DNA of 64,000 nt. Source: a candidate division FCPU426 bacterium. GTDB taxonomy: Bacteria; Oederibacteriota; Muellerivitia; Muellerivitales; Muellerivitaceae. The stretch spans positions 1 through 64,000 of the forward strand of contig CAWKAR010000028.1 of the NCBI GenBank assembly GCA_963847625.1, written 5' to 3'. The translations under genes were made by a program, and so were the position numbers. The notes under the pieces were generated by a model that was given only the letters and a program-made list of their open reading frames with translations, was not told where the DNA came from and ran no database searches. This document shows, piece after piece, positions 1 through 18,186 of this stretch. Each line of letters begins with the position of its first letter. Position 1 is the stretch's first letter.

Positions 1-83
1 AAAGTCTTTCCGTATTTTTTGTGTAGCGGCGATGGTAATTCCGCCTCTCAAGCCGGGAAATAAGCCCCGGCAGGAGGGGTAAA

Positions 84-1877
84 ATGGACGAAAAGCAGCA
101 GCAATCAGATCAAGCAGAAGCAGTTCCTTCACTTAGCACACCCATACAAATCAATTCGCATAACCCACCTTTGATGCCAACACAGGGAGAAGAACCTGTG
201 GACAGCCTTGAAAAGCGTCTGTTTTTGGTCAAGGAATACCTGAAAATCGGTGGTTCCCAGCGATCCTTTTGCATCACCCATGGAATAAATGGTTCGACCT
301 TTAATTGCTGGCTAAAGAAGTATCGGATTGAGGGCGAGGAGTGGATGAGAAAGCGGCACAACCAATATCTCGTATCAGGACACCACGATGGGCCATTCAA
401 GCCGGAAGAACGTCGACAGGCTGTGGAAATGTTCATGAAATCTGGATCGTCAGTCCATGATTTCGCAAGAGTATGGGGCGTAAGCGAAAACACACTGGAA
501 GGTTGGCTTCAGAAGTACCGAACTGGAGGGCCTAAAGCCCTTGAGGGCAGAAAACCCGGTGGCCGACCCCGGCGAAAAGGAGTGCGGGAACTCATTGAGA
601 AGGTAAAACAAGAAAATCCGGATTTTGGTTTGAGGAAAGTGAAAAATTTTCTAGGCCGAATCGCCGGCGTCAGGGTAAGTACCAGCAGTGTCCGTAACGC
701 TCTCAAAGGCAAAGGATATCCAAGCGGGAGGATGAAGAGAAGACGGGAAAAGTCACAACTACCTCGGCGTTTTGAGCGGTCTCGCGCGGGGGACTTGTGG
801 CAAAGCGACATCACGAGTTTCGTCCTCCCTCGATACGGGCAACGGGTTTACTTGACTGTGTTCCTGGATGACTACAGTCGGTACATTGTTTCTTGGAGAC
901 TGGCCTTTCAACAAAAACAAGAAATCGTGGTTGAGGCTCTTCTTTCGGGAATAGACCGGTTTGGGCAACCCAAGGAAGTTCTCACAGACCAAGGGCGGCA
1001 GTATTTCGCTTGGCGCGGGAAAGGCGATTTCCAACGGCTCTTGCGTAAAAAAGGTATCCAGCACGTGGTTGCGCGTACTCATCATCCACAGACGGTTGGA
1101 AAGACTGAGCGTTTCTGGGCAACGGTCATGGAAGAATTCTGGGGACGATATCAGCCACAGGATTTAGCCGAGGCAAAGGAACGATTGGGGCATTTCATCA
1201 ACCACTACAATCATTTTCGGCCACATCAGGGAATCGATGGAATGGTGCCAGCGGATCGGTTTTTCGGGGTGGAAAATGAGGTCAGAAAAGCGCTGGAAGC
1301 GGCCATGCAAAAGAACGAATTGCGTTTGGCTGTAGGTGAAGAACCAAGGAAGCCGGTATATTTGGTGGGTCAAATTGGGGACCAACAAGTGTCCATGCAT
1401 GGGGAGAAAGGGAAAGTAGTTATCCAGACGCCGGATGGACGTGTACAAGAACTAGGGTTGAATGGTTTGGGCGTGAAAATCCAGGAGGATACCAATGGAA
1501 GAGGCCGAGAAGGGCGAAAAGAAACGGATTTCCAAGGGCCGCATGAAGAGAAAATTCAAGTTTCAAATGAATGTGGCATTGCCAATGAAGGCCTTGTGGG
1601 AAACGGCAAGTCTGCAGGAGAAGGAGAAAGCGCACCAAACGGCGGCGGTGATGTTGGAATATTGGATGGGTCGCGTCACGAAGGAGGAAGCGGCGCAGAA
1701 ACTGGAAATACCACCGTTGCGAGTGTGGCAATTGTCCCAACAAGCGTTGGCGGGCCTGGCGGCGGGGTTGGTGAAGCAACCCAAGGCAGGCAAGAAAAAG
1801 ATGAGGGAGGCCTTGCCACCGGAGGAGGACCCGAAGCAACTGAACAAAAAAATCCAGAACCTAGAACGGGACCTTGA
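84..1877 (+). CDS. IS481-like DDE transposase (tandem HTH + rve integrase core)
   Basis: Two HTH-like repeats, then WQSD...LTDQG...GKTERF (D,D,E) and HYNHFRPHQGI. AGGAGG RBS upstream. Confidence 0.9.
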   Translation: MDEKQQQSDQAEAVPSLSTPIQINSHNPPLMPTQGEEPVDSLEKRLFLVKEYLKIGGSQRSFCITHGINGSTFNCWLKKYRIEGEEWMRKRHNQYLVSGHHDGPFKPEERRQAVEMFMKSGSSVHDFARVWGVSENTLEGWLQKYRTGGPKALEGRKPGGRPRRKGVRELIEKVKQENPDFGLRKVKNFLGRIAGVRVSTSSVRNALKGKGYPSGRMKRRREKSQLPRRFERSRAGDLWQSDITSFVLPRYGQRVYLTVFLDDYSRYIVSWRLAFQQKQEIVVEALLSGIDRFGQPKEVLTDQGRQYFAWRGKGDFQRLLRKKGIQHVVARTHHPQTVGKTERFWATVMEEFWGRYQPQDLAEAKERLGHFINHYNHFRPHQGIDGMVPADRFFGVENEVRKALEAAMQKNELRLAVGEEPRKPVYLVGQIGDQQVSMHGEKGKVVIQTPDGRVQELGLNGLGVKIQEDTNGRGREGRKETDFQGPHEEKIQVSNECGIANEGLVGNGKSAGEGESAPNGGGDVGILDGSRHEGGSGAETGNTTVASVAIVPTSVGGPGGGVGEATQGRQEKDEGGLATGGGPEATEQKNPEPRTGP

Positions 1878-2067
1878 TCTAATGAAAGACCTGGTGAAGC
1901 TATTGAGGGAGCTGCCGGGTAATCGGGAAGTGTTAAAAAAAGCGGAGGAGTTGGGAGGGAAAAAAAAGAAGCCCAAGGTGGTTCGCCCGGCAAGCGGGAA
2001 TGTTGTTGGGGAAGAAAAATTGCCGGGGCCAACGGAAGCTTCTATCCAGCCAACTTCAGGTGAGTGA
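1495..2067 (+). CDS. HTH + coiled-coil accessory protein (OrfA-like)
   Basis: Own AGGAGG RBS before ATG 1495. HTH-like segment (EEAAQKLEIPPLRVWQL) and heptad KQLNKKIQNLERDLDLMKDLVKLL. Confidence 0.7.
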   Translation: MEEAEKGEKKRISKGRMKRKFKFQMNVALPMKALWETASLQEKEKAHQTAAVMLEYWMGRVTKEEAAQKLEIPPLRVWQLSQQALAGLAAGLVKQPKAGKKKMREALPPEEDPKQLNKKIQNLERDLDLMKDLVKLLRELPGNREVLKKAEELGGKKKKPKVVRPASGNVVGEEKLPGPTEASIQPTSGE

Positions 2068-3010
2068 GAGGACGCTGAATAATTGGATTCGCGGGGCGCA
2101 TAATCAAAAAAGAAAACAGGGACGCCCCGCGTATTCCGCGAGTGCAAGGTATCGGGCTAAGTTGGCAGTAAGGCGTCAAGTGAGGGATTTTGGTTGGACT
2201 ACAGGATGGAGATCTATTGCGGCCATCCTTCGCGGCAAAGTATCGACGAGGTTGGTGCAGGAAAGCCTGTCCCAAATAAAGGCGAGACACAGGAAAAAGT
2301 TGAGGGAGTTGGCCGAGAAAAACCGGGTGAGCGTAGAGGTGTTGGCAAAAGATGTGATCTGGGCGCAGGACGCGGCGCACATTGGGCGTGTTGGAAAAGT
2401 AGCATTGCAGGCAGAAGTAATCAAAGATCGAGCGACTTTGGGTTTTAAGGGTCTGGCAGTCGGACCCGCTGCTAAAGCAGAAAATATATTGACCATGTTG
2501 GAGCTGCAAAAAAAGAAAACAGGACTGCCTTTGGTTTGGTCGACCGACAATGGTTCGGCCTACAAAAACGAAAAATTAACAGACTACCTACGACACGAAA
2601 AAGTGATTCATCTGCTTTCTCGACCCCGAACACCGCAGGACAATGGGGCCGCTGAGCGAGGAATCGGCGAAATAAAGGCGGAATCCAGCCTGGAAAAAGG
2701 GGTTGGATTTCGTGCTGTGCAAGAAGCAGTATCGTGCTTAGCGAAAACGTGGCACCTGCTAGATGGCCGACCTAGGGCCAGCAAAGGTTATCAGAGCGCC
2801 CAGCAGCTTGAAAACAGCCTTGTGAAAGGCCCTTCGCTGGTTGATCGGGAGACTTTCTACCTGGAAGCTTGCAGGAATATTAAAAAAGCGGTACAAGGAG
2901 GTGAAACACCCAGAGAAAAACGAAAAGCGGAGCGGTTAGCTATTTACGAAACACTTGAGAAAAATCACTTGATTAACATTCTGAGGGGCGGAAAAAATTG
3001 TCGTGCTTAA
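2000..3010 (+). CDS. Second DDE integrase/transposase (rve core)
   Basis: N-terminal HTH (VSERTLNNW), then WAQD...STDNGSAY...PQDNGAAERG (D,D,E). True start uncertain; the frame is open from 1937. Confidence 0.85.
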   Translation: MLLGKKNCRGQRKLLSSQLQVSERTLNNWIRGAHNQKRKQGRPAYSASARYRAKLAVRRQVRDFGWTTGWRSIAAILRGKVSTRLVQESLSQIKARHRKKLRELAEKNRVSVEVLAKDVIWAQDAAHIGRVGKVALQAEVIKDRATLGFKGLAVGPAAKAENILTMLELQKKKTGLPLVWSTDNGSAYKNEKLTDYLRHEKVIHLLSRPRTPQDNGAAERGIGEIKAESSLEKGVGFRAVQEAVSCLAKTWHLLDGRPRASKGYQSAQQLENSLVKGPSLVDRETFYLEACRNIKKAVQGGETPREKRKAERLAIYETLEKNHLINILRGGKNCRA

Positions 3011-3045
3011 CAGGAAATTCCGGAAGATATTTTGTGAACACTACA

Positions 3046-3667
3046 ACCATAGGAGGCCCGGCCATGTTCATAGGACCTCGGCCTTATGACCATAGGAGTT
3101 CCAGCCATGTTCATAGGCGGCCAGCCCATGCCGACGGTTGCCGACGGAAATGTGGGCAGTTTATCCCCCTTTGTTTAATGGGTTATCTCCCCGTTTAATG
3201 GGTTCGCCCGGTTCCGTTTAATGGATTCCGCTCCCGTTTAATGGGTTCGTGCCTCGTTTTACGGGTTCGCCTGGTTCCGTTTAATGGGTTCCGCCCTGTT
3301 TAATGGGTTCGCCCGGCTCCGTTTAATGGATTCCGCCCCGTTTAATGGGTTCCGTCCTGTTTAATGGGTTCGCCCGGTTCCGTTTAATGGATTCCGCGCC
3401 GTTCAAAGTGACCGGCCAGAGGTGGGGTTAAAGCACTTGGCCAGCTAGGGGGTTAAAGGTCGCGGCCAATGACATCCCGGTTCCGGGAACTCCGGAACCA
3501 CTGAAACTTGGGTATCCGGGGACACTGGAACTCTGGAACCGGCCTGGAACCACTGGAACTCGAGAATCCGGGAACTCTGGAACTGGCCTGGAACCACTGG
3601 AACGGGTTCGACGAACTCACCGCAGGCTGGCCGGGAACCCGGGAACTGGGTTGGCGGTCCTGGAATT
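3046..3667. repeat. Composite tandem-repeat locus A
   Basis: CATAGG x4 at ~21 bp period, one ATGTGGGCAGTTTATCCCC (3150), GTTTAATGG(G/A)TT(C) x11 at 19-23 bp period (3174-3394), then a GGAAC-rich block (3486-3667). Confidence 0.9.
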
Positions 3668-3710
3668 GGGTTAGTCGAGATAAGCCAGTATCAGAAAAAC
3701 TATGGTTGCC

Positions 3711-4070: not shown

Positions 4071-4556
4071 GGTTTCCTTAACCCCTTACCCTTTCTTGGT
4101 ACGTTTCCACTGGGCGTAATAGTATCACGAAAATTTTACGTGATACCATTAATGGCTTGTTGATCTGATTCTTTCCCAAAGGGCATCCCGGCCCTTATCC
4201 AGGCACCTGATACGGCCCTTATGCTTCAAATCCGCCAATGCCCTTTTTAAGGTTGGATAGCAGACCCCGGGGCAAGCCTAGGGACATAGGTGGCTATTAG
4301 GCCGTTTAGAAAGGGGAAGGAAAATCAGAACGACGGTTTTTAGGTTAAAAAAAGAACCCTATAGCAAAGAGTGGGAGCCCACACTGGTTAAAAGATAGAA
4401 CTTTCAAAGTTCTATTTTAGACACCGTAACCCACCCAGACTGGTTAATAGATAGAACTTTTTCTCTTCGTTACAAGAAACCGAAGGTATGTCCAATAAGC
4501 TAATATTATAACTCCACCAATTTTACACTTTCGATTGTAATAATAATTTAATGATT

Positions 4557-5384
4557 TTAAAAGCAACCATGATCGCCGTATTCGCAGAACACCTTTGAGG
4601 CAAGATTTGCGTTTTCAACTGAAGGGTCTGATTTCAGGATTTTTATTGCATCCCACACGTATATTTCTTTTTTGACTTTTACGATATATAAATCCGGGCC
4701 GTAAGTAATGTCTTTTATAGTTCCCACCTTTGTAAAAATTCGTTTTTTATCCATCGAAGAAATATTTTTTTTAAATGACACGGCAACTTCATCCAGCTCA
4801 CAATTTGGTGGAAGACCAACTTTTTCTACCGCCGAATCATTTTTCAACTTATCAATGGCTTCATCTAGGTTCATGCCATTTGTGATTTTTAGTAACAAAT
4901 ACTTCTTCGGCCAATCATCAAAACCAACATCTTTTCCAATCAAATGAATTAATCGTTGCTTATCTTTTGTATTAATATTGGTTTTTAAACATATAAAAAT
5001 TTCCCCATATTTTAATAAAGGTGAAAAGTTAGAGCCACCCATTGCATGGCAAACTTCCAGTTTTTTATTTAATTCTTGGGTTGCATTTGGCATGTCGTAA
5101 TTCAAAAGGACTAGAAGCCAATCACCACAATTTTTAGAATCTTCTTTGCATATTTGCCCAAACGGTAAAAGAATTCTTTCTTTTTCAGATAAAAGAATAT
5201 CCGGTTTAAATTCCACCATTATGAATGGTCTTATTTGAATACGTGTTAAAGGTACATTTCCTCCGCTCGCTAACAAAGGGTGCCTTAGCCACAAACAGAT
5301 TAAAATAAAAACCAATAAAGAAAAAAGACTAAAGAATTGTTTTGGCTCAAGATTTTTTATTTGGATGCCTTTTTTGATTTTCAT
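4557..5384 (-). CDS. Exported protein with two subtilase-propeptide-like repeats
   Basis: N-terminal hydrophobic segment; two similar ~65-aa units ending AIDKLKNDSAVEKV and AIKILKSDPSVENA. AT-rich. Confidence 0.6.
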   Translation of the reverse strand: MKIKKGIQIKNLEPKQFFSLFSLLVFILICLWLRHPLLASGGNVPLTRIQIRPFIMVEFKPDILLSEKERILLPFGQICKEDSKNCGDWLLVLLNYDMPNATQELNKKLEVCHAMGGSNFSPLLKYGEIFICLKTNINTKDKQRLIHLIGKDVGFDDWPKKYLLLKITNGMNLDEAIDKLKNDSAVEKVGLPPNCELDEVAVSFKKNISSMDKKRIFTKVGTIKDITYGPDLYIVKVKKEIYVWDAIKILKSDPSVENANLASKVFCEYGDHGCF

Positions 5385-5420
5385 AAATTACTCGGAAATT
5401 TTTTAATCGATTACTGATAT

Positions 5421-5450
5421 TGGCGGGGTTGACGGGGCAATCGAACCGCG
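5421..5450 (-). other. tRNA 3'-end remnant (tRNA-Asp-like)
   Basis: Minus strand reads GGTTCGATTGCCCCGTCAACCCCGCCA: a T-loop, acceptor 3' strand and CCA, with no 5' half. Confidence 0.55.
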
Positions 5451-5574
5451 CTTACGCACTCACAGGAGAAATAACCCCTGTGTACCCCTTTAAACAACCG
5501 GGAAACTCCTGTTTCCCGAACCTTTCCCAGGGCTCTCGCCTCCAAATATTATCTGATTTTTCTTAGAAAAATAT

Positions 5575-5615
5575 CGGGGTTGACGGGGCTCGTACTCTCA
5601 ACCTCCTACATGGCA
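5575..5615 (-). pseudogene. Decayed 3' half of tRNA-Asp (att-like scar)
   Basis: TGCCATGTAGGAGGTTGAGAGTACGAGCCCCGTCAACCCCG aligns without gaps to the usual tRNA-Asp 3' half pattern (TGTCACG.AGGAGGTCGCGGGTTCGAGCCCCGT...), with G discriminator. Confidence 0.55.
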
Positions 5616-5853
5616 AAAAGACATTATAATCCAGCTTTTATAAGGGTTTGGCCTGTATAGAAAAAATTGAGAAAATCCCTTTTAGGTTGTAACCTCTGAA
5701 AAAGTCGGGCTTCGCCTCCTTTTTCAGAGAGACTTTGAAGGAAACCCCACGATTCCCTGCGGAAATCTTTGGGGTCGAAACCTCTGTTGGTCGCATTTTA
5801 ATTGGGACTTACATACTTAAGTCCGGAAAGAGGGGAATTTGAAATTCCTCATT

Positions 5854-6615
5854 CTATTTATTTATATCTATTGTTCGATTGTGTTTCCCTTGCATACTAA
5901 AGATAGAGAAATTGGATTTGGGACTAGCCCCATAACAAAATTCGGTTCGATGTTTAACTTTATAGATATCGCTATAGGCAATCCATCCACAAACATAAAA
6001 ATTCCCGCCATTACTACCATCCCGAACCCTTTTTATTACATCAGGAAATATTGGACCCGCACCACTCCGAACATTATTTCCTGGAGAAATCATTCCATAG
6101 GCTTGGCTTTCTGGGTTAGCAATGCGCGGATGATCGAAAAAGTTATTCACATCTTTCAAAAATTCGCATGTTCCTGTAACCACAACACATCCCAAAGCTG
6201 GTGTTTTGCCTGTGTTTATAATGGATATCTCAAAATCATCAGGATCATCACCATTCCAATGCGGTTTAACCCCGGAAGATGCCATCCAAGCTCTTTGGTC
6301 TATTCGTTGTTCGGACTGCATTTCAAAAATTTGTTTACTAGCTATTTCCAATTGCCCTTTCATAGTTTCATATTGGTTGTTCAAAACTCTCAATGTTTTC
6401 CAATTCACATAAATCGAAACAGCGGCCAAAATAACCATTGCCCAACTTGCAAACATTGTTCTCCTTGCCGATTTATCTATGGAACTTTCTTCTTCTTTGC
6501 TGGCATGATGCTTTTCTATTTCGCTCTTTATATAGTCGATTCCCCTTATATTCCCATCTTGTTTTGGTTTCTCCTCATCCTTATTTTGGTCTTGGGTTTT
6601 ATTAGTATCGGCCAT
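5854..6615 (-). CDS. Passenger membrane-anchored hypothetical protein
   Basis: 253 aa with a charged N-terminus, one TM helix, a coiled coil, a DQRAW motif and a beta-rich domain. Divergent from the transposase, inside the TIRs. Confidence 0.7.
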   Translation of the reverse strand: MADTNKTQDQNKDEEKPKQDGNIRGIDYIKSEIEKHHASKEEESSIDKSARRTMFASWAMVILAAVSIYVNWKTLRVLNNQYETMKGQLEIASKQIFEMQSEQRIDQRAWMASSGVKPHWNGDDPDDFEISIINTGKTPALGCVVVTGTCEFLKDVNNFFDHPRIANPESQAYGMISPGNNVRSGAGPIFPDVIKRVRDGSNGGNFYVCGWIAYSDIYKVKHRTEFCYGASPKSNFSIFSMQGKHNRTIDINK

Positions 6616-6670
6616 GGGGTTGGTATCCTTATGGATTTATTGGGTTTATTATAACACAAAAATACATTAG

Positions 6671-6703
6671 ATACTTGACTCCGTATCCGGAGTCAAGTAT
6701 AAT
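6671..6703 (+). promoter_or_regulatory. Sigma-70 promoter of the IS1595 transposase overlapped by a 13-bp palindrome
   Basis: TTGACT(6675)-N17-TATAAT(6698) inside ATACTTGACTCCG-tatc-CGGAGTCAAGTAT. Confidence 0.8.
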
Positions 6704-6736
6704 GCCTTTAGTAGATGATTTTAGGGAGGCAAAACA

Positions 6737-7653
6737 ATGAAAAACACAGCGATTAGCACATTCCAACTCTTCTCAATGTTTCCGGATGCAGAATCCGCAA
6801 GGCAACACATTGAAAAACTTCGTTGGCCCAATGGCCCAGTTTGCCCGTTTTGCGGAGAAACCAAGAGAATCGGCAACCGCAAACCTGAATTTTATTGCTG
6901 TAATGTTTGCATCCTGGACTTTACGGTACGAACTGGAACCATTTTCGAGAGAAGCCATATACCTCTTCACAAGTGGTTATATGCCATGTACCTTTTGGTA
7001 ACAGCACGTAAAGGAATATCTAGTATGCAACTTTCAAAAGAGATCGGGGTTACTCAAAAGTCGGCTTGGTTCATGCTTGGGCGTATTCGGGAAGCTTGCG
7101 GGCAAGATTTGGGAAAGCTGAATGGCGTTATTGAAATTGACGAAACTTATGTGGGTGGTAAAGAAAAAACAAACACGCAAATAAAAGAATAGGCGGTCGT
7201 GGTACTCGTGGAAAGGTTCCGGTTATAGGAATGCGAGAAGATGACGGCTTGGTTATCGCTGAACCATTAAACAACGTTAAGATTCCAACTATCAAAGAAG
7301 CCGTTCGCGAAAATGTTGAATCGGGTTCCGAAATTTTTACGGATGAAGCAACAGCCTATAAAGAAATGCCTGAATACAAACATGAATTTGTAACTCATAG
7401 CAAAGAAGAATATGTCCGCGGTGATGTAACCACTAACGGAGTTGAGAGTGTTTGGGCGATTTTAAAGAGAGGTTTGAACGGGGTTTATCATGGTCGGGTG
7501 GAAAAGAAACATTTAGCCCGTTATGTCAATGAATTCACTTTCCGTTTGAATGATGGAAACGTAACCCGCACAACCCAAGAGCGTTTGACAAGTCTTATTG
7601 ATGCTTCGATTGGAAAAAGGCTTACTTACAAAAAATTAACAGAGGTGGTTTGA
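6737..7653 (+). pseudogene. IS1595-family transposase, split by a 1-nt frameshift
   Basis: Zn ribbon (CPFC...CNVC), EIDETYVGG, IFTDE, TNGVESVW and RYVNEFTFR motifs. Adding one A in the A6 run near 7164-7169 restores GGKEKNKHANKRIGGRG. Confidence 0.88.
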
Positions 7654-7755
7654 ATGGCAAAGGCAAAAGAAAAAATAAATATTCTTTTAAATCGGATTTT
7701 TGCCTATGGGCCACATAAACCACGAAATAAGGGAAAAAAGAAAAAACGGACTTAA
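7654..7755 (+). CDS. 33-aa basic peptide inside the IS1595 element
   Basis: ATG directly follows the transposase TGA, with GAGGTGG RBS. Reads MAKAKEKINILLNRIFAYGPHKPRNKGKKKKRT; its stop lies in the right TIR. Confidence 0.5.
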   Translation: MAKAKEKINILLNRIFAYGPHKPRNKGKKKKRT

Positions 7756-7807
7756 GTATATAAGTCCCTTTTAATTTTTCAGAGGTTTCAGGTTATTGGA
7801 CCACCGG

Positions 7808-9079
7808 TTAAAACGTGGGGACCTGCTTCAGGTATTGGGTATTGATATCCGCGCATAAGATGCGGGTGATACCGTTGATATCCTTGAAAAGCCTGGCAAA
7901 AGTCACGCAAAGGCTTCCCGTCGGCTGGGACAAGTAGGCCTCGCTGACGTAAGTGGTTTTCCGCCCCCCGCCCTCCACCACCATGTAGTAATAGTCCCGA
8001 AGAGAATGGTCTGAGCCCGTTTTCCGGGGCTTGAACATCGTGCGGTTCCTGGAAATCCCCCCGGCTTCCCCGAAAATGGTTTCGGTGCATTGGATGCCAT
8101 GTTCGTCCAGGACATAGACGCACTCCACAAGTGGGAAATAATGGATAAGTTCCAGAAGTTTACGGTCAAAATCGCATTCCGGGATTTTAGAAACTTCCGT
8201 TTGTATTTCCCGCGTCATGAGTTCGTACTTGCGGAGGTTGAACCTCTTGACGTTGAGCTTTTCCAGGACCATTTCCTTGAACCTCTGGGAAAGGCGCTGG
8301 ATGGGGGCTTCCGAGACTTGGGCGTCCAGTTCGCCGAAGCGCTGGGGCGGGGTGATGAAATAGCCCTGGAGCATGTCCACCCCCATTTCCATGACGGTCA
8401 GGGCGTCCTCCTCAGTCTCGATTCCCTCGGCGACGATCAAGGCCCCGATTTGGCGCGCCAAGCCCACCAGGGATTTGAAAACCTCCTGCTTGTAAAAGTC
8501 TTTGGAAATATTCTCCACCAGGAACCGGTCAATCTTGAGGATATCGGGTTTCAAAAGGGGAATTCGATTGAGGTTGGAATGGCCCGCGCCGACGTCGTCC
8601 AAGGCGATGAGGAAACCATAACCCTGGTAGGTTTGTATGAAATTTTGAAGTTCCGCTAGGTCCTCGACCTGGGACTCGATGACCTCCATGGCGATGGATT
8701 CTGGTTTCAGGCCCAATGACAAGACTTGTTGGATCAGTTTCCCGGAATCGGAGCCTTTCTGGTCGATGACCGATACCTCGAAATTCAAGGACAGGAAAGC
8801 ATCGGGATTGTTCCCTAAAATCACCTTGAACTGTTCCAGGACCTTTTGCCGACAAAGCACGTCGAGGGAATAGGTAAGCCCCTGGATTTTGGCTTCCGAG
8901 AACAAATCACAGGGGTAAATGCGATGTTGGAGGAGAGGATGGATTCCGCGGGTCAAGCCCTCGTAACCGAGGATGGATTTTTTCCCAATGGAGACAATGG
9001 GCTGGAAATGGGGTTCGACGAATTCGCCGTCGATAACCTCATTCAGGTTGAAAGAGGCGGTTTGAGTCCGCAAGTTCAT
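7808..9079 (-). CDS. EAL-domain c-di-GMP phosphodiesterase with C-terminal sensor-like domain
   Basis: FQPIV, EGL, ALDDVGAGHS, LKIDR, VAEGIE and QGY motifs; YkuI-like C-terminus. Confidence 0.9.
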   Translation of the reverse strand: MNLRTQTASFNLNEVIDGEFVEPHFQPIVSIGKKSILGYEGLTRGIHPLLQHRIYPCDLFSEAKIQGLTYSLDVLCRQKVLEQFKVILGNNPDAFLSLNFEVSVIDQKGSDSGKLIQQVLSLGLKPESIAMEVIESQVEDLAELQNFIQTYQGYGFLIALDDVGAGHSNLNRIPLLKPDILKIDRFLVENISKDFYKQEVFKSLVGLARQIGALIVAEGIETEEDALTVMEMGVDMLQGYFITPPQRFGELDAQVSEAPIQRLSQRFKEMVLEKLNVKRFNLRKYELMTREIQTEVSKIPECDFDRKLLELIHYFPLVECVYVLDEHGIQCTETIFGEAGGISRNRTMFKPRKTGSDHSLRDYYYMVVEGGGRKTTYVSEAYLSQPTGSLCVTFARLFKDINGITRILCADINTQYLKQVPTF

Positions 9080-9325
9080 GGATGATTCCCGAAAATAAGG
9101 TCACTTATTCAGGCGAAACATAACGTTGTATACATAGAATTGGCTTTTATCCCGCCCATTATCAAGGGCCTTCAAAAATATTTTATACTTTCAACCGCTG
9201 TGGAACTTTTTAAGGAAAAAGGATTAGGTTGGAAAATCGAGGGTTACCATCGGTAATCGGGTGCTAAAAACATACTGCGTGACGCGAAGCACCGCTGTGG
9301 TAAAGCTGAAGTTTTGTAAGAAGTC

Positions 9326-10978
9326 CTAAATCTCCATAATAACGGGCAAAATCATGGGTCTTCGGTCGGATTTCTGGGAGAAGAACTTCTGGAGGGACTT
9401 GCGCATCACTTCCTTCACGCTACCCCAATCGACTATTTTGTCCTTCACTTCCGTTTCCAGAACCTTCTTGATCCGTTCCCGGGCATCCGCCATCAGCTCA
9501 TCCGACAGGCTTTCCGTAAAGCCCCGGGTCACCAAGTCGGGCCCCCCTACCACCGTCCCCTTGGACGCGTCCACGGTCACGAGGGCCACCACCACCCCGT
9601 CCTGGGATAAATGAAGCCTGTCCCGCAAGACCACTTCCCCCACCTCAGCCATGTGCTTGCCGTCCACGAAGATACTGCCGCCGGGTTGGTCCTTCTCGAT
9701 CCGGGCTTCCCCATCCTCGATGAGCAGTTTTTCCCCGTTCTCCAGCACCAGCGTGTTTTCCGGGGGCATGCCCATTTCCTCGGCCATCCGGGCGTGCATC
9801 ACCAGGTGGCGGTATTCCCCATGCACCGGGGCGAAATACTTGGGTTTCACCAGGGAAATCATGACCTTTTGTTCCTCCCGGCAGGCGTGGCCGGAAACGT
9901 GGATTTCCGAGACCGCCTCGTAAAGGACCTCCGCGCCGCGGCGGTAAAGCAGGTTGATGATGTTGGAGATGGCGCGCTCGTTTCCCGGTATGGTGCGGGC
10001 CGAAAGGAGAACAAGGTCGTCGGGTTGGATGGAAACCTGCTTGTGGTCGCCCATGGCCATGCGGGTCACGCTGCTCATGGGCTCGCCCTGGCTTCCCGTG
10101 GTCACGATGACGACTTTTTCCGGGTCCATCCCTTTTAAGTTCTCGGGGGACACCATCACGTTGGACGGCACATGCATGAAGCCCAGTTCCTGTGCTACCT
10201 GGGTGTTACGCACCATGCTTCGGCCCATGATGCAGACCTTTCGGCCGACCTTGCGGGCGGACTCGATGACCTGCTGGACCCGGTGGATGTTGCTGGCGAA
10301 ACAGGCCACGATGATGCGGCGCTTGGCCTTGGGAAAAATCTTGTCGAATTCCTCACCCACCACCTTTTCGGAGAGCGTGTATCCCTCCCGCTCCACGTTT
10401 GTGGAATCGGAAAGAAGGAGCAGGACCCCGTTGGAGCCGTAATGGGCGAAGCGGTTCAGGTCGATGGGCACGCCGTCGATGGGCGTGGGATCGATCTTGA
10501 AGTCGCCGGTATGGATGACCACCCCGGCCGGGGTCGTGAGGGCGATGCCGCAGCCGTCCACGATGCTGTGGGTGACCCGGATGTACTCGATATGGAAGGG
10601 CCCCACGTCGAAAGGCTGTTTAGGGTCCACTTCCACGAATTTGGGTTCCTCGGGCAGGTTGAATTCCTCCAATTTGGCCTTCACGAATCCCAGGGTAAGC
10701 TTTGTTCCATAGATAGGTACATTGAGTTTCTGGAGCAGATATGGCACGGCCCCGATATGGTCCTCATGCCCGTGGGTCAGCAAAACCGCCTGGAGCCGGC
10801 CGGGCGTTTCCGCCAAGAAGTTGAAATCGGGAATGATGTAATCCACCCCGGGGTGCCGGTCGTCCGGGAACATGATACCCGCGTCGATCATGACGGCCTG
10901 GCCGTCATACTCCAAAAGGGCCATATTCTTGCCGATTTCCCCCAGGCCTCCCAGGGGAATGAATGATAGCTTTCCCAA
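9326..10978 (-). CDS. rnj: Ribonuclease J
   Basis: GGLGEIGKN, THGHEDHIG, TGSQGEP, HVSGHA and PVHGE motifs. Confidence 0.97.
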   Translation of the reverse strand: MGKLSFIPLGGLGEIGKNMALLEYDGQAVMIDAGIMFPDDRHPGVDYIIPDFNFLAETPGRLQAVLLTHGHEDHIGAVPYLLQKLNVPIYGTKLTLGFVKAKLEEFNLPEEPKFVEVDPKQPFDVGPFHIEYIRVTHSIVDGCGIALTTPAGVVIHTGDFKIDPTPIDGVPIDLNRFAHYGSNGVLLLLSDSTNVEREGYTLSEKVVGEEFDKIFPKAKRRIIVACFASNIHRVQQVIESARKVGRKVCIMGRSMVRNTQVAQELGFMHVPSNVMVSPENLKGMDPEKVVIVTTGSQGEPMSSVTRMAMGDHKQVSIQPDDLVLLSARTIPGNERAISNIINLLYRRGAEVLYEAVSEIHVSGHACREEQKVMISLVKPKYFAPVHGEYRHLVMHARMAEEMGMPPENTLVLENGEKLLIEDGEARIEKDQPGGSIFVDGKHMAEVGEVVLRDRLHLSQDGVVVALVTVDASKGTVVGGPDLVTRGFTESLSDELMADARERIKKVLETEVKDKIVDWGSVKEVMRKSLQKFFSQKSDRRPMILPVIMEI

Positions 10979-13896: not shown

Positions 13897-16742
13897 GAGG
13901 CCAAGCCTCCGCCGGTTTCCCGCAGCTTTTTAACAACCGGACCGCAGCGGTGGCAGATATCCGGATAGGTTTTATCCATTTGTTCCGCCGGATAGTAATT
14001 CCAGCACCGGGCGCATTTTTGGCCCTTGGATTTTTTCGTCAAAATGCGGGTTTTTATGCGGGCTTCCTCGGCTTCCACGGAATCGGAGGGGGCCTTCCCG
14101 GATTGGAGCCCGACCCGGGAAACGAGGAAATAATAGCGGAGGTTTTCCAGGTGCTTTTGAAGGACCGGCATCACTTTTTCATTTTCAACGTACAAGTCGA
14201 CCTCGGCCTCCAAGGAGCTTCCGATGGTTTTATTTTGCCTTAGCGTCTCGAGCGATTTCGAAACTGCCCTTTTAACGGAAAAGAGATCCTCCCATTCCTG
14301 CAGGAAATTTTCATCCTTGGGGGATTCCAATTCCGGCCACCGGGATAAAAAGACGCTTTTTTCGCCTTTCTTTTTGAAGGAATCCTGGAGCGATTGCCAA
14401 ATTTCCTCCGAAGTGAAGGAAAGGATGGGGGCCACGGCCACGACAAATCCCATGAGGATGTCATAAAGCACCGTTTGAGCCGCCCGGCGGGCCTTTGAAT
14501 CCGCCTCGAAGGTATAAAGGCGGTCCTTTAAAATGTCAAAATAACCCGCGCTCAAACCCACGGAAAAAAATTGGTCCACCTGGTGGAAAACCTTGGTGAA
14601 CTGGTATTGGTCGTAAGCGGCGGTCATTCCGGATAGGGTTCTCTGGGCTTCCATCCAAGCCCACCGGTCCAAGGGTAAAAAGTCCTTTTCGCCCACCCGA
14701 TGTTCCGAGGGATGGAAGTCGAAAAGGTTTCCGAGGATGAACCGGAAGGTATTACGGATGCGCCGGTAGGCTTCGGACATCCGTTTGAGCATTTCCTCGC
14801 CGATGGCCACATCCTCGGTATAGTCCTCCGAGGACACCCAAAGGCGAAGCACATCCGCCCCGTATTTCTTGACCATTTCCAGTGGATCAATCACATTCCC
14901 CGCGCTCTTGTGCATGGCCTTGCCTTCGGTGTCCAAGACCCAGCCATGGGTCAAAACCCCGCTGAAAGGGGCTTTCCCTTTCAGGGCAACCCCCGTCCAA
15001 AGGGCGCTTTGGAACCATCCCCGGTGTTGGTCGCTTCCCTCCAAGTAGAGAACAAACGGTTTTTCCCCGGAGCTCACGGTTTTTAATTCATCGCGCTGGT
15101 CGATGACGGCGAAATGGGAATTTCCGGATTCGAACCAGACATCCAATATGTCGACTTCCTTCACGAAATCAGCTGAACCGCAATTCGGGCATTTATAGTC
15201 TTTAAGCCAACCGTAATTTCCCTCTTCAAACCAGCCCTCAATTCCCTCTTTTTCAACTTTATCCACAATCGATTCCAAAATGCGCCGGTCATCCACGACT
15301 TTATGGCATTTCCCGCAGTAAAAAGCCGTGATCGGCACCCCCCAGGACCTTTGCCTGGAAATGCACCAGTCGGCCCTGCCTTCCACCATGTTGCGGATCC
15401 TGTCTTTGCCCCAGGAGGGAATCCATTGGACCTTTTCGATCTCCTCCAGGCATTTTTTCCGCAAGTTCTTATTATCCAGCTCGATGAACCATTGGGCCGT
15501 GGCCCGGAAGATAATGGGAGTCTTGGACCGCCAACAATGGGGATAGCTGTGTTTCAGGGTCTCAACCGAAAGCAGGAGGCCCAACCCCTTGAGTTTTTCC
15601 ACGATTTTCGGGTTGGCGTCCCAAACCGAGACTCCCTCGAACTCCTTGAAACGGGAATCGTACCTTCCAGCCTCGTTCACGGGAGAATAAACCTCCAAAC
15701 CGTATTGAAGGCCGATCTCATAGTCCTCCCGGCCGTGGCCGGGGGCCGTATGGACCAACCCCGTTCCCGTGTCGGCGGTGACATGGGAACCCACCATGAC
15801 CAGCGAGTCCTTGTCGAGGAAGGGGTGGCGGGCCAAGGCCCGGTCGAGTGATTTCCCCATGGTTTCATCTATAACCTTCATTTCGGAAGCTTTCCAGCCG
15901 CAAGCTCCCGCCACCTGGGCCAGGAGAACCTTGGCCAGGATGTAATGCTTGTCCCCCACCTGGACAGTTACATACTCGAAATCCGGGTGGACGGAAATGC
16001 CCAGGTTCGCGGGCAGAGTCCAGGGGGTCGTCGTCCAAATCAGGAAGTAAAGGTTTTTCCGGGGGGTGTTGGGGAAAACCCCCTCCGGCAGTTGTTTGGC
16101 CGGGAAAGCCACGGTCACGGATAGGGACTCATGGTCGGCGTACTCCACCTCGGCTTCCGCCAGGGCCGACTTGCAAACCGGGCACCAATGGATGGGCCTC
16201 AAACGCCTGCTGACATAGCCTTCCGAGATCATTCGGGTCAGGGCCTTGACCAGGGAAAGCTCATAGGTGGGGTCCATGGTGGAATAGGGTTTTTCGAAAT
16301 CCCCGAACACCCCCAAGCGCTTGAATTCCTCCTTCTGCCGCTCGAGGTATTTTTTGGCGTACTTCCTGCATTCTTTCCAGATTTCAACCTTCGTCATGGA
16401 CTTCGCCTTGGAGCCCAGTTGCTCCACGACCTTATGTTCAATGGGCATTCCGTGGCAATCCCAGCCGGGGATATAGGGGCTATCGAAGCCCCGTAAAAAG
16501 CGGTACTTGACGATGATATCTTTTAAAACCTTGTTGAGCGCGTGGCCCATGTGGATATCGCCATTCGCGAAAGGGGGGCCGTCGTGAAGAATGTACCGGG
16601 ATGAACCGGATTTCCGCGGGACGGATTTATAAAAACCCAGTTCCTCCCAAACTTTCAGCCTCTGGGGCTCCGTCTGGGGAAGGTTGGCCTTCATGGGAAA
16701 GGCGGTTTGGGTGATGTTGAGTGTCGCTTTGTAATCGGCCAT
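13893..16742 (-). CDS. ileS: Isoleucine--tRNA ligase (type 1)
   Basis: HDGPPFANGDIHMGH, WTTTPWTLP, EGSDQHRGWF, AMHKS and C-terminal CARCW...CHRC Zn finger. Confidence 0.98.
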   Translation of the reverse strand: MADYKATLNITQTAFPMKANLPQTEPQRLKVWEELGFYKSVPRKSGSSRYILHDGPPFANGDIHMGHALNKVLKDIIVKYRFLRGFDSPYIPGWDCHGMPIEHKVVEQLGSKAKSMTKVEIWKECRKYAKKYLERQKEEFKRLGVFGDFEKPYSTMDPTYELSLVKALTRMISEGYVSRRLRPIHWCPVCKSALAEAEVEYADHESLSVTVAFPAKQLPEGVFPNTPRKNLYFLIWTTTPWTLPANLGISVHPDFEYVTVQVGDKHYILAKVLLAQVAGACGWKASEMKVIDETMGKSLDRALARHPFLDKDSLVMVGSHVTADTGTGLVHTAPGHGREDYEIGLQYGLEVYSPVNEAGRYDSRFKEFEGVSVWDANPKIVEKLKGLGLLLSVETLKHSYPHCWRSKTPIIFRATAQWFIELDNKNLRKKCLEEIEKVQWIPSWGKDRIRNMVEGRADWCISRQRSWGVPITAFYCGKCHKVVDDRRILESIVDKVEKEGIEGWFEEGNYGWLKDYKCPNCGSADFVKEVDILDVWFESGNSHFAVIDQRDELKTVSSGEKPFVLYLEGSDQHRGWFQSALWTGVALKGKAPFSGVLTHGWVLDTEGKAMHKSAGNVIDPLEMVKKYGADVLRLWVSSEDYTEDVAIGEEMLKRMSEAYRRIRNTFRFILGNLFDFHPSEHRVGEKDFLPLDRWAWMEAQRTLSGMTAAYDQYQFTKVFHQVDQFFSVGLSAGYFDILKDRLYTFEADSKARRAAQTVLYDILMGFVVAVAPILSFTSEEIWQSLQDSFKKKGEKSVFLSRWPELESPKDENFLQEWEDLFSVKRAVSKSLETLRQNKTIGSSLEAEVDLYVENEKVMPVLQKHLENLRYYFLVSRVGLQSGKAPSDSVEAEEARIKTRILTKKSKGQKCARCWNYYPAEQMDKTYPDICHRCGPVVKKLRETGGGLAS

Positions 16743-16899
16743 TCTTGATCCAATGACTTCGAATTAAGACCGTAAGATTATCAAATGCCGGTGGAAATGT
16801 TGAGTGTTTTCTGCTCGGTTATGATTGGGGGTCAGCGATCTTGAATAACTTATGCGTGTGTTGAAGCCTATTTGGGGCAGGCAGGCTTCAGAATGTTTT

Positions 16900-18186
16900 T
16901 CAAACTGAAACCCTCAGGACGCTGTTGTCGCCACCCAGGGTGTCGGTGACCCGTTCCGGGCAAGCCGGGTCCGGGATCCATTCCACGTCGTTCAACACGA
17001 ACTTGTAATGATAGACCCCTTGGTTCAGGGAGATGATGAACTGGAAACTGCCGTCGGGCTGCCGGACCATGGGGTCGATGTCCTTGTCCCAGTTGTTGAA
17101 ATCGCCCACGAGCGCGACCTTGAAAACCTCGCGGTGGGGCTTGAAAGTCAGGGTGACCTTGTTGGGCGGTTCAAAAGCCACCACCCGGTTTCGGCCCTGG
17201 GATTTGGCTTCGTAGAGACTGCTGTCGGCCGACTGGATCAACACATCCTCGTTGGCGGCGTCCACGGGAAAAGTGGCCACCCCCGCCGAAACGGTAAGAA
17301 CCCCTGTCGGCTTATACTCCATGTGCTCGAAGTGAGTTCCGGCAATCTTTTCCCGGATCCGGTCGGCCATCTCGAAGGCCCTCTTCCGGCTTGTTTCTGG
17401 AAGCACCAGGACCATCTCCTCCCCCCCGTACCGGGCCACGATATCAATCTCGCGGGCCTCGTTTTGCAGGATCTGCGCGATTTTTTTCAACACTTCGTTG
17501 CCGGCCGGGTGGCCGTTGGCGTCGTTGTATTTCTTGAAATGGTCGATGTCGATGATGATCAGGGAAAGAAGCCGGTGGTACCTCTCGGCGCGGATTCTCT
17601 CCTCTTTCAAGCGCTCCAGGAAATATCCGAAATTATAAAGGCCGGTCAGGCGGTCGGTGATGGCGATCTGGCGTGTCCGCTCGTAGAGGAGGGCGTACTC
17701 AATGGCCAACACGTCCTGGTTGAAGCCCTCTTCATCCTTCACGCGCATGGCGCTCTCAAAAAAAACAAGGCCCAGCCGGTTCAGGAGGGAAGAAACCTGA
17801 TCCAGTTCGTCGGCGTATACCAGATTCCCGTTGCTGTCACCTTCCCTCACGGACTCAGCCCCCATTTGCTTGAGGGTTTCCCGGAGGATATCCCGCATGA
17901 GGAACAGAAAAAAGACCATTTCGGTGGGGTTCAGTCGGTTTTCCGCCTGGAGGCTTCGAAGCTCGGAGACAATGGGCTTGAGCGCGGTGTCCACGGCCTG
18001 CTCGGCGCTTCCCTTTTTTTCCACGATGGCGACCAGGTCCATCAGGAGTTTCCGGATCTTATGGAAAATCGGCGAGTCGGGCTTGAATTGATCCACCCGG
18101 GACGACAAGGCCCGGGCCGAGGCGTTCCACTGTTCCCTCAGCAGGTCATCCTTGTTCTGTAAAAACTCTTTAAGTGAATTGATCAT
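16900..18186 (-). CDS. Diguanylate cyclase with RsbRD-like N-terminus and C-terminal CBM48/AMPK-beta-like glycogen-binding domain
   Basis: TDRLTGLYN, DIDHFKKYND, RYGGEEM and RxxD (REID). C-terminus VALVGDFNNW...YHYKFVLNDVEWIPDP...GGDNSVL. Confidence 0.88.
   Translation of the reverse strand: MINSLKEFLQNKDDLLREQWNASARALSSRVDQFKPDSPIFHKIRKLLMDLVAIVEKKGSAEQAVDTALKPIVSELRSLQAENRLNPTEMVFFLFLMRDILRETLKQMGAESVREGDSNGNLVYADELDQVSSLLNRLGLVFFESAMRVKDEEGFNQDVLAIEYALLYERTRQIAITDRLTGLYNFGYFLERLKEERIRAERYHRLLSLIIIDIDHFKKYNDANGHPAGNEVLKKIAQILQNEAREIDIVARYGGEEMVLVLPETSRKRAFEMADRIREKIAGTHFEHMEYKPTGVLTVSAGVATFPVDAANEDVLIQSADSSLYEAKSQGRNRVVAFEPPNKVTLTFKPHREVFKVALVGDFNNWDKDIDPMVRQPDGSFQFIISLNQGVYHYKFVLNDVEWIPDPACPERVTDTLGGDNSVLRVSV

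What the first reader, a model, noticed from the sequence alone, without database searches (positions are those of the whole stretch)
22..3045. One transposon, two catalytically intact DDE transposases plus an HTH/zipper protein
Seen: three tightly overlapping ORFs between TGTAG and CTACA. ORF1 (WQSD/LTDQG/KTER) and ORF3 (WAQD/STDNG/AAER) each keep a full D-D-E triad yet are highly dissimilar. I found no internal IS ends or target duplication that would mark one IS nested in another. A 12-bp motif sits ~17 bp from the left end and ~52 bp from the right end (inverted), more like the asymmetric binding sites of Tn7/Mu-type elements than simple IS TIRs. Known: IS481 and IS3 elements encode a single DDE enzyme. 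Inference: an unclassified element using a heteromeric or end-specialised transposase pair.
Basis: partly seen in the sequence, partly recalled or inferred. Interest (0 to 1): 0.8.

Follow-up and report, generated by a model that had tools for sequence, protein, structure and literature searches.

The report
Insertion element with two different transposases
This is a real, recently mobile 3-kb jumping gene from a widespread, apparently undescribed family that keeps two different cut-and-join enzymes inside one pair of ends and, where it could be checked, sits between unrelated pieces of DNA instead of making the usual clean insertion.

Summary
The three ORFs and both D-D-E triads are real, but the window clips the element. 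The true left end lies 14 bp outside it (3059 bp in all). Both ends are ordinary ~26-bp imperfect inverted repeats with the 12-bp motif 53 bp inside, so the Tn7/Mu-like asymmetry is an artefact.

The genome holds five copies with different right flanks. All 63 testable loci found through ORF1 carry ORF2 and ORF3, across several phyla. Triads are intact in 81/81 ORF1 and 80/81 ORF3; all three genes show purifying selection.

No target duplication above chance was seen in 49 full-flank copies, whereas control ISs in this assembly keep theirs (21/22, 7/16). In eight copies the gene or repeat cut at one end does not continue at the other. Relatives carry five abutted end junctions with a 1-bp spacer and eight outward-facing end pairs holding 0.5-2 kb of mostly AT-rich DNA.

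Best model, inferred: IS3-type circle formation, then uncoupled one-ended strand transfers by a two-enzyme complex. This scan reported the family before on other DNA (five notes). Nine literature searches found no description.

The parts
1..12 (+). Inner part (element bases 15-26) of the left terminal inverted repeat; the first 14 bases lie left of the window, beyond the contig break
   Evidence: Complete 94.6%-identical copy in G001 (L086 2808-5866); left-end remnant at G000:C25:58088; family logo of 86 left ends
39..50 (+). Inner left-end motif, starting 53 bp from the true left end; probable second protein-binding site (inferred)
   Evidence: a related CCTC-type motif recurs 55-62 bp inside both ends in many relatives
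84..1877 (+). ORF1, IS481-like DDE transposase (two N-terminal HTH regions, integrase core D242/D302/E342, conserved domain to about residue 470, then a Gly/Glu-rich tail read through ORF2)
   Evidence: Pfam rve 2e-22 and HTH_28; NF033577 IS481 212 bits, cut-off 224; triad 81/81; frame open over ORF2 in 71 of 79 against 6.4 expected
1495..2067 (+). ORF2, small helix-turn-helix plus long-helix (coiled-coil-like) protein resembling IS3 OrfA; own strong ribosome-binding site
   Evidence: Model with helices 63-70, 74-93 and 113-139, mean pLDDT 70.6; only weak HTH matches in PDB, E>0.3; Atlas neighbours HTH_28/HTH_Tnp_1; weak NF033516 N-terminal match, E 0.002; dN/dS 0.04-0.18
2000..3010 (+). ORF3, second, faster-evolving DDE transposase with its own N-terminal HTH (D124/D183/E219)
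   Evidence: Model pLDDT 93.4; Foldseek top hits retroviral integrases, IstA and TnsB; triad unsubstituted in 259 homologues apart from gaps; dN/dS 0.10-0.21
2982..2993 (-). Inner right-end motif, starting 53 bp from the right end (11/12 match to the left motif)
3020..3045 (-). Right terminal inverted repeat (~26 bp, one base shorter than the left in its outer part); transposition breakpoint at 3045
   Evidence: Five copies diverge into different flanks after 3045; family logo of 80 right ends

Best explanation
A single 3059-bp autonomous element of a distinct IS481/IS3-related family that needs two different DDE transposases and a small HTH helper. SHOWN: fixed gene order inside one pair of inverted repeats, both triads conserved under purifying selection, recent multiplication, end-to-end junctions with a 1-bp spacer, no target duplication, and unrelated DNA on the two sides where this could be tested. 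INFERRED: (1) one end is nicked and joined 1 bp outside the other, giving an IS2/IS3-type circle or tandem junction. (2) The two enzymes, co-expressed from one operon, work in one complex, each probably serving one end or one step. (3) At integration the two ends are not transferred to opposite strands of one site but one at a time to separate sites. Each landing therefore joins unrelated DNA (deletion, replacement or fusion) and leaves no duplication. The same one-ended chemistry would put DNA between outward-facing ends and exchange the DNA next to orphan ends.
For: Linkage: 63 of 63 ORF1-found metagenome loci with >=900 nt downstream carry ORF2 and ORF3, and 69 of 69 with >=300 nt carry ORF2 (best 79 loci of 552 confirmed matches). 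31 of 31 near-full ORF3 loci among L001-L033 with upstream DNA carry ORF1 and ORF2. Triads: ORF3 53/53/52 in 53 loci found via ORF1, ORF1 27/27/27 in 27 found via ORF3. dN/dS 0.02-0.21 in six pairs; identity matrices of ORF1 and ORF3 correlate, r 0.79. No duplication: 49 unique full-flank copies give 1 bp 16 (12.6 expected), 2 bp 2 (3.4), 4 bp 1 (0.15), 5-12 bp 0. Up to 45 bp nothing more in 52; no pair >=3 bp in 44 left-right cross pairs in 7 multi-copy genomes. Controls in G000: IS30-like 21/22, IS3-like 7/16. Broken continuity in eight copies: L075, L082, L008, L077, both copies in single-contig G035, L121 and L148. Five 1-bp junctions and eight outward-facing pairs. The same orphan left end has different DNA joined exactly at its tip in G000:C25 and G001:C12. 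Ends nested inside older ends: L212 and L039, L092.
Against: No activity data; which enzyme acts on which end or step is not shown. Missing duplications also result from ordinary insertion followed by adjacent deletion or recombination (PMC11708052, passages), and half of the IS3-like control copies lack theirs. Most loci come from metagenome assemblies that can mis-join repeats. Several copies with long open frames on both sides (L015, L114, L135, L019) could not be tested and may be clean blunt insertions. No strain-level filled/empty pair was available. How the bodies of the outward-facing pairs were lost is unexplained. A strict sigma-70 scan found no promoter at the L210 junction. Kin loci are not independent, and the 81 trios were chosen as intact frames.
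Confidence: 0.5

Rival explanations
1. Step-specialised enzymes with normal insertion: one DDE makes the circle, the other inserts it concertedly with a short duplication, and very frequent later adjacent deletions by the resident ends erase the duplication at nearly every copy.
For: 1-bp junctions show a copy-out step. Adjacent deletion is a known cause of missing duplications (PMC11708052, passages). Nested ends show that ends keep reacting. IS21 has step-biased products of istA (recalled).
Against: Only 1 of 49 copies has a 4-bp match (0.15 expected), including near-identical recent multi-copy sets, while IS30-like copies in the same assembly keep 21/22.
Confidence: 0.22
2. IS26-like replicative copy-in: the element forms cointegrates, adjacent deletions and inversions, with no free circle.
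For: Directly repeated copies flanking short DNA (L113, 933 bp; L225, 3995 bp) resemble pseudo-compound transposons; flanks are unrelated.
Against: Copy-in should leave duplications shared between copies; none >=3 bp in 44 left-right cross pairs, including single-contig G035 and three-contig G073. Abutted 1-bp junctions point to a figure-eight step. The enzymes are IS481/IS3-like, not IS6-like.
Confidence: 0.1
3. Only ORF1 is the working transposase; ORF3 is a structural or regulatory partner that keeps its acidic residues for folding or metal binding.
For: ORF3 evolves faster (median identity 33% against 52%; long branches). One intact-frame ORF3 has E to V.
Against: All three acidic positions are unsubstituted in 259 homologues down to about 30% identity while neighbours vary. 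Lys/Arg at E+7 is kept in ORF3 (79/81) but not in ORF1.
Confidence: 0.1
4. Clean blunt insertion with no duplication; the unrelated flanks are assembly mis-joins across a 3-kb repeat.
For: No duplication is seen; some copies have frame-compatible open frames on both sides; many contigs break at the element.
Against: Broken continuity is also seen in single-contig G035, three-contig G073 and 20-contig G001. There the missing gene halves are not at any other copy examined, and in G001 no near-identical continuation exists in the genome.
Confidence: 0.07
5. Two independent ISs (an IS481 and an IS3-like OrfA/OrfB pair) nested or adjacent by chance.
For: ORF2 plus ORF3 resemble OrfA plus OrfB in order and domain type.
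Against: One pair of ends, no internal ends; linkage 63/63 and 31/31; ORF3 is in the +1 frame of ORF2 in 76 of 80 trios, not -1, and has its own HTH.
Confidence: 0.01

Closest known systems
IS481 family (NCBIfam NF033577; features from PMC10045372 and 10.1101/2022.12.17.520857, passages)
   Same: TGT...ACA termini, imperfect inverted repeats, HTH plus integrase-core DDE transposase; ORF1 scores 212 bits against a cut-off of 224
   Different: IS481 members encode one transposase (recalled) and make 2-15-bp duplications, mostly 6 bp; this family has two DDE enzymes plus an HTH protein and no duplication
IS3 family, IS2 in particular (PMC3299598, passages)
   Same: Small HTH/zipper protein like OrfA; ends differing in length by one base; abutted-end junction with a 1-bp spacer
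   Different: No -1 OrfA/OrfB relation (ORF3 is +1 to ORF2 and complete by itself); an extra full transposase upstream; IS2-subgroup elements make 5-bp duplications (PMC10045372)
IS1202 family (10.1101/2022.12.17.520857, passages)
   Same: Related DDE core, TGT termini, two-part inverted repeats
   Different: Single 400-500-aa transposase, 5-6, 16-17 or 27-28-bp duplications, XerCD-site targeting in one subgroup; NF033594 only 72 bits against a cut-off of 250
Tn7, Mu, IS21 (multi-protein DDE systems; Tn7/IS21 from search listings and abstracts, details recalled)
   Same: Several proteins per element; ORF3 fold matches IstA and TnsB
   Different: Their partner is an AAA+ ATPase or a non-DDE nuclease (TnsA); here no ATPase, two DDE enzymes, and symmetric simple ends
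IS26 pseudo-compound transposons and the IS2-like megacircle element of Burkholderia thailandensis (PMC6350997, abstract)
   Same: Directly repeated copies flanking captured DNA; rearranged flanks
   Different: Those use one transposase type; no two-enzyme unit and no orphan outward-facing end pairs are mentioned in what I read
Tn554 and RIT elements (recalled, no call)
   Same: Two or three recombinase genes in one overlapping operon, with a small helper in Tn554
   Different: Tyrosine recombinases, not DDE enzymes

Membership tests
IS481 | 5'-TGT termini in imperfect inverted repeats | tested here: met
   Logos of 86 left and 80 right ends; L086
IS481 | Transposase matching NF033577 above its cut-off | tested here: not met
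   ORF1 212.2 and ORF3 63.1 bits against 224, (ORF1 is a near miss)
IS481 | One DDE transposase per element | tested here: not met
   Two conserved DDE ORFs in 63/63 testable loci
IS481 | Target duplication of 2-15 bp | tested here: not met
   controls
IS3 | orfA/orfB in 0 and -1 frames fused by programmed frameshift | tested here: not met
   ORF3 is +1 to ORF2 in 76 of 80 trios; an A6[AG] run is in the overlap in only 32 of 80 and in mixed frames. ORF1 scores above the NF033516 cut-off (172 against 160) but as a single ORF
IS3 | Circle or tandem junction of abutted ends with a short spacer | tested here: met
   Five chromosomal junctions with a 1-bp spacer; free circles not observed
IS3 | Junction promoter | tested here: inconclusive
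   A -35-like and a -10-like hexamer 18 bp apart are visible by eye; the strict scan of L210 found none
IS3 | 3-5-bp target duplication | tested here: not met
Tn7/Mu/IS21-type | AAA+ ATPase partner inside the element | tested here: not met
   Three ORFs fill the element and none has an ATPase domain
Tn7/Mu/IS21-type | Asymmetric arrays of repeated transposase sites at the ends | tested here: not met
   One outer repeat and one inner motif at base 53 of each end
IS1202 | Single transposase above the NF033594 cut-off; 5-6, 16-17 or 27-28-bp duplication | tested here: not met
   72.5 bits against 250; no long duplication
IS6/IS26 | Cointegrate-only (copy-in) transposition | not testable with these tools
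   Needs an assay; no IS6-type family hit for ORF1 or ORF3
Two-DDE family proposed here | Both enzymes catalytically required and acting in one complex | not testable with these tools
   Conservation only

The most novel reading that the evidence does not exclude
A new class of DDE element in which two different enzymes each drive one end into a separate DNA site. It would then act as a natural 'join any two DNAs' and gene-capture device: autonomous copies fuse unrelated segments, while orphan outward-facing ends left in chromosomes are re-used in trans to take up and exchange 0.5-4-kb pieces of foreign DNA, rather like an integron built from transposon ends.
Probability: 0.3. Interest if true: 0.92.

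Novelty: new variant of a known kind. Interest (0 to 1): 0.8.

Why it matters
The DDE insertion sequences I know of use one catalytic transposase type for both ends and leave a target duplication (own knowledge; PMC7780238 and PMC3299598 passages describe how one enzyme must manage both the asymmetric circle step and the symmetric insertion step). A family that keeps two distinct active enzymes offers a natural way to assign these steps or ends to separate proteins, testable with two point mutants. If insertion is uncoupled, the family is an unrecognised engine of deletions, fusions and gene capture in many uncultured bacteria: the ORF3 profile hits 366 clusters at 50% identity at E<=1e-30. 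An enzyme pair with separable end reactions could also interest genome-engineering work.

Tried and rejected
Left end at 22 and asymmetric ends: rejected.

ORF2-ORF3 frameshift fusion: rejected as a rule. The frame is +1, slippery runs are not conserved (32 of 80), and ORF3 has a start candidate in 70 of 80. An obligatory ORF1-ORF3 fusion is also rejected: ORF1 stops before the ORF3 frame opens in 17 of 80 trios and in the window copy.

Stop/start overlap of ORF1 and ORF3 as proof of translational coupling: I first counted 26 exact overlaps, then dropped the count, because a TGA stop makes such an overlap by itself (33 of 49, no enrichment). Only the open frame (71/79) and the stop lying within 100 nt of the ORF3 start (69/80) remain.

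One-bp duplication: not above chance (16 against 12.6). Long duplications: none in 47.

Complex prediction of ORF1 with ORF3: no verdict.

Sequencing runs: no RNA holder listed; the one run laid gave seven short contigs and no joints.

Viral contigs: no ORF2 relative, no junction or right-end pattern match, and seven left-pattern matches that proved unrelated. Plasmids (PLSDB): no ORF2 match; ORF1 and ORF3 gave only generic IS481/IS3 hits of about 31% identity or less.

Misses in the ORF3 scan (54 loci): L006, L031, L034 lack upstream DNA; L035-L037 hold only ORF3 fragments without partners; L038 and L046 show ORF2-like frames but no ORF1, and L042 ORF1 but no ORF2; L043 and L047-L054 are weak core-only hits without partners and were not followed. 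One ORF1 N-terminal fragment without partners was seen (L087).

Empty-site searches around L082 and L008 in relatives found no orthologous empty site. The left flanks of the five G000 copies could not be recovered.

The tree is the quick IQ-TREE run, with long ORF3 branches; the relation of either clade to IS481 or IS3 is unresolved.

Literature: nine searches found no description. ISfinder and TnCentral could not be searched, most subscription papers are outside the library, and no supplements were read.
Full report
**1. Observation.** The three ORFs are as described: 84-1877, 1495-2067 and 2000-3010. ORF1 matches rve and HTH families and falls just short of the IS481 cut-off (212 against 224 bits); ORF3 matches rve and IS481/IS3 weakly; ORF2 has no confident family. 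ORF1 and ORF3 are not alignable by BLASTP, but their family profiles align over 288 columns. The ORF3 model is confident (pLDDT 93.4) and its best structural matches are retroviral integrases, IstA and TnsB. ORF2 models as an HTH followed by a long helix, with only weak PDB matches and HTH_28/HTH_Tnp_1 neighbours in the Atlas.

**2. Boundaries corrected.** The window starts at a contig start. The genome has five full copies: four at 99.9% or more and one at 94.6%. A complete copy in G001 (L086, 3059 bp) places the true left end 14 bp left of base 1. The ends are ~26-bp imperfect inverted repeats, the left one base longer in its outer part. The 12-bp motif begins at base 53 from each end. Among 120 loci, a left end was found in 86, a right end in 80 and both in 60, spanning 2730-3329 bp. 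The claimed Tn7/Mu-like asymmetry is therefore an artefact of clipping.

**3. A family, not a nest.** A scan of GTDB genomes with the ORF3 alignment gave 54 loci. Among L001-L033, all 31 with upstream DNA carry ORF1 and ORF2 in order; the remaining loci include fragments, a distant group and weak core-only hits, listed under Tried and rejected. The reverse scan with the ORF1 alignment kept the best 79 loci of 552 confirmed matches: 69 of 69 with at least 300 nt downstream carry ORF2, and 63 of 63 with at least 900 nt carry ORF2 and ORF3. In 101 relatives of the host, every ORF1 match above 200 bits that I examined has a second DDE gene downstream. Record titles name Bdellovibrionota, Planctomycetota, Acidobacteriota, Desulfobacterales and others. 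Two distant subgroups exist: one in Planctomycetota with two small HTH ORFs, and one with different end sequences (G073, three identical copies). In a quick tree of the catalytic cores, all ORF1 sequences form one clade (97) and all ORF3 another (96), each split into the same three subgroups and apart from 12 ordinary IS481/IS3-like sequences (long branches, quick method). The ORF3 profile hits 366 clusters at 50% identity at E<=1e-30.

**4. Both enzymes look alive.** In 81 intact trios the ORF1 triad is complete in 81 and the ORF3 triad in 80. Counting only loci found through the partner gene gives 27/27/27 for ORF1 and 53/53/52 for ORF3. In 259 ORF3 homologues from protein searches the three positions show no substitution, only 1-3 gaps each. 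dN/dS in six close pairs is 0.02-0.18 (ORF1), 0.04-0.18 (ORF2) and 0.10-0.21 (ORF3), and pairwise identities of ORF1 and ORF3 correlate (r 0.79; permutation maximum 0.13; kin are not independent). Each ORF is in the +1 frame of the one before in 75 of 80 trios. The ORF1 frame stays open across the first 120 codons of ORF2 in 71 of 79 (6.4 expected; the third frame is open in 0 of 80) and stops within 100 nt of the ORF3 start in 69 of 80. I read this as selection for an acidic tail or for ribosome delivery to ORF3 (inference; the window copy stops 125 nt short).

**5. No target duplication, and unrelated flanks.** In 49 unique full-flank copies, matches of 1, 2 and 4 bp number 16, 2 and 1 against 12.6, 3.4 and 0.15 expected, and none is longer. 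Tests to 45 bp (52 copies), for long duplications (47) and across copies in seven multi-copy genomes (44 left-right pairs, none of 3 bp or more) add nothing. In the window's own assembly an IS30-like element keeps its 2-bp duplication in 21 of 22 copies and an IS3-like one its 4-bp duplication in 7 of 16.

Where the cut sequence could be recognised, it does not continue on the other side:
- L075: left flank 99% identical to G000:C15 up to base 1500, right flank 93-94% to G000:C20; neither continuation has a near-identical match in G001.
- L082: left flank is the first 296 bp (99.7%) of a repeat whose continuation is absent on the right.
- L008 and L077: left flanks are promoter plus 5' gene parts whose paralogues continue differently.
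- The two copies in single-contig G035 cut long genes whose other halves are not at the other junctions.
- L121 has a cation-efflux fragment on one side and an integrase on the other; L148 truncates cas1.
No copy was shown contiguous. L015, L114, L135 and L019 have compatible open frames and remain untested.

**6. Junctions and outward-facing ends.** An end pattern gave 42 matches in 13 of 93 genomes of the host phylum (one control match). Following those not belonging to full elements, I found:
- five right-end/left-end junctions with exactly one spacer base: L208, L210, L211, L216 (left end decayed) and L218;
- eight outward-facing pairs around 494-1408 bp of AT-rich DNA (GC 0.31-0.37 against 0.50-0.56 around it), or 1971 bp including an IS30-like copy in G000:C25.
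Only 26-283 bp of the element is recognisable beside these ends, and no transposase gene lies nearby. Most inserts hold one or two small ORFs, with few Pfam matches. No inward-facing miniature was seen in these loci. Intact forms also occur (element, 933 bp, element in L113; 3995 bp in L225). Three scars lie between genes that are neighbours or near-neighbours in G000. The G000:C25 left-end remnant has an orthologue in G001:C12 with different DNA joined exactly at its tip, and the remnant is absent at that site in the four other relatives searched. Ends also sit inside older ends (L212, L039, L092). A 1-bp junction spacer and ends one base apart in length are features of IS2 circles (PMC3299598, passages), but IS2-subgroup elements make 5-bp duplications (PMC10045372, passages).

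**7. How it most likely works.** Shown: one unit, two conserved DDE enzymes, IS3-type junctions, no duplication, and unrelated flanks in the eight copies where this could be judged. Inferred: a figure-eight step makes a circle or tandem junction (as described for copy-out/paste-in in PMC7780238, passages). The two enzymes act together with the OrfA-like ORF2, and the two ends are transferred one at a time to separate sites. This one property accounts for the missing duplications, fused flanks, nested ends, captured inserts and exchanged neighbours of orphan ends. I put it at 0.5. The main rival (0.22) is normal insertion followed by unusually frequent adjacent deletion, a known cause of missing duplications (PMC11708052, passages). 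Copy-in (0.10), a non-catalytic ORF3 (0.10), blunt insertion with assembly errors (0.07) and chance nesting (0.01) are less likely. That both enzymes are needed, whatever the pathway, I put near 0.85. How the bodies of the outward-facing pairs were lost is unexplained.

**8. Comparison and novelty.** It works like an IS3/IS481-type element in its ends and junction, but fails membership of IS481 (two transposases, no duplication, below cut-off), IS3 (no -1 OrfA/OrfB fusion), IS1202 and the Tn7/Mu/IS21 types (no ATPase, simple symmetric ends). Nine literature searches found no description; ISfinder could not be searched. Papers seen: passages of PMC10045372, PMC11708052, PMC7780238, PMC3299598 and 10.1101/2022.12.17.520857; abstract and outline of PMC6350997; the rest as search listings only. 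Five earlier notes of this scan report the same kind of family on other DNA. I saw them after the main analysis; they agree on the two enzymes, three of them mention the missing duplication or footprint, and they are not independent support. The corrected ends, broken flank continuity, 1-bp junctions and outward-facing end pairs do not appear in the few lines shown to me. Verdict: real, a new variant with an unusual architecture and possibly a new mechanism; interest 0.8.

Noticed in passing
window 3046-3670: Clusters of short REP-like direct repeats (19-23-bp and 33-44-bp units) right of the element; related clusters are scattered through G000 and G001.
   Followed up: no
window 6737-7653: IS1595-family transposase split into two frames (zinc ribbon, then DDE_Tnp_IS1595) at the end of an AT-rich stretch of unknown ORFs (about 4200-7800).
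   Followed up: no
L225 (G035) 7333-10538 and 14534-17739: Two direct copies differ at 242 positions, all within about the first 1.2 kb (ORF1), and are identical over ORF2 and ORF3: a mosaic, suggesting exchange of ORF1 between variants.
   Followed up: partly
G000:C25:55834-58183 (L227) and G001:C12 (L289): Outward-facing end remnants next to gatB hold different inserts in the two genomes; G001 has two decayed ORF3-tail repeats, each next to a pair of small ORFs.
   Followed up: partly
L210, L211, L216, L218, L208: Chromosomal right-end/left-end junctions with a 1-bp spacer and no transposase nearby; possible portable promoters or acceptor sites.
   Followed up: partly
L040, L041, L044, L045: Distant Planctomycetota subgroup with two small HTH/long-helix ORFs between the two DDE genes.
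   Followed up: partly
L148 right junction: A copy of the element truncates a cas1 gene.
   Followed up: no
L075 flanks (G001:C7): Flanking DNA is 93-99% identical to G000 although other shared regions of the two genomes are about 83-85% identical; recent exchange or binning.
   Followed up: no
G000, several contigs: At least 22 copies of an IS30-like and 16 of an IS3-like element; many very long Thr-Pro-repeat proteins with beta-propeller-like repeats.
   Followed up: no
L081, L077, L044 flanks: Rhs-like ORFs lie next to several copies of the distant subgroups.
   Followed up: no
flanks of 49 copies: Weak symmetric target bias: C is rare five bases left of the left end (2/49) and G five bases right of the right end (4/49).
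   Followed up: no
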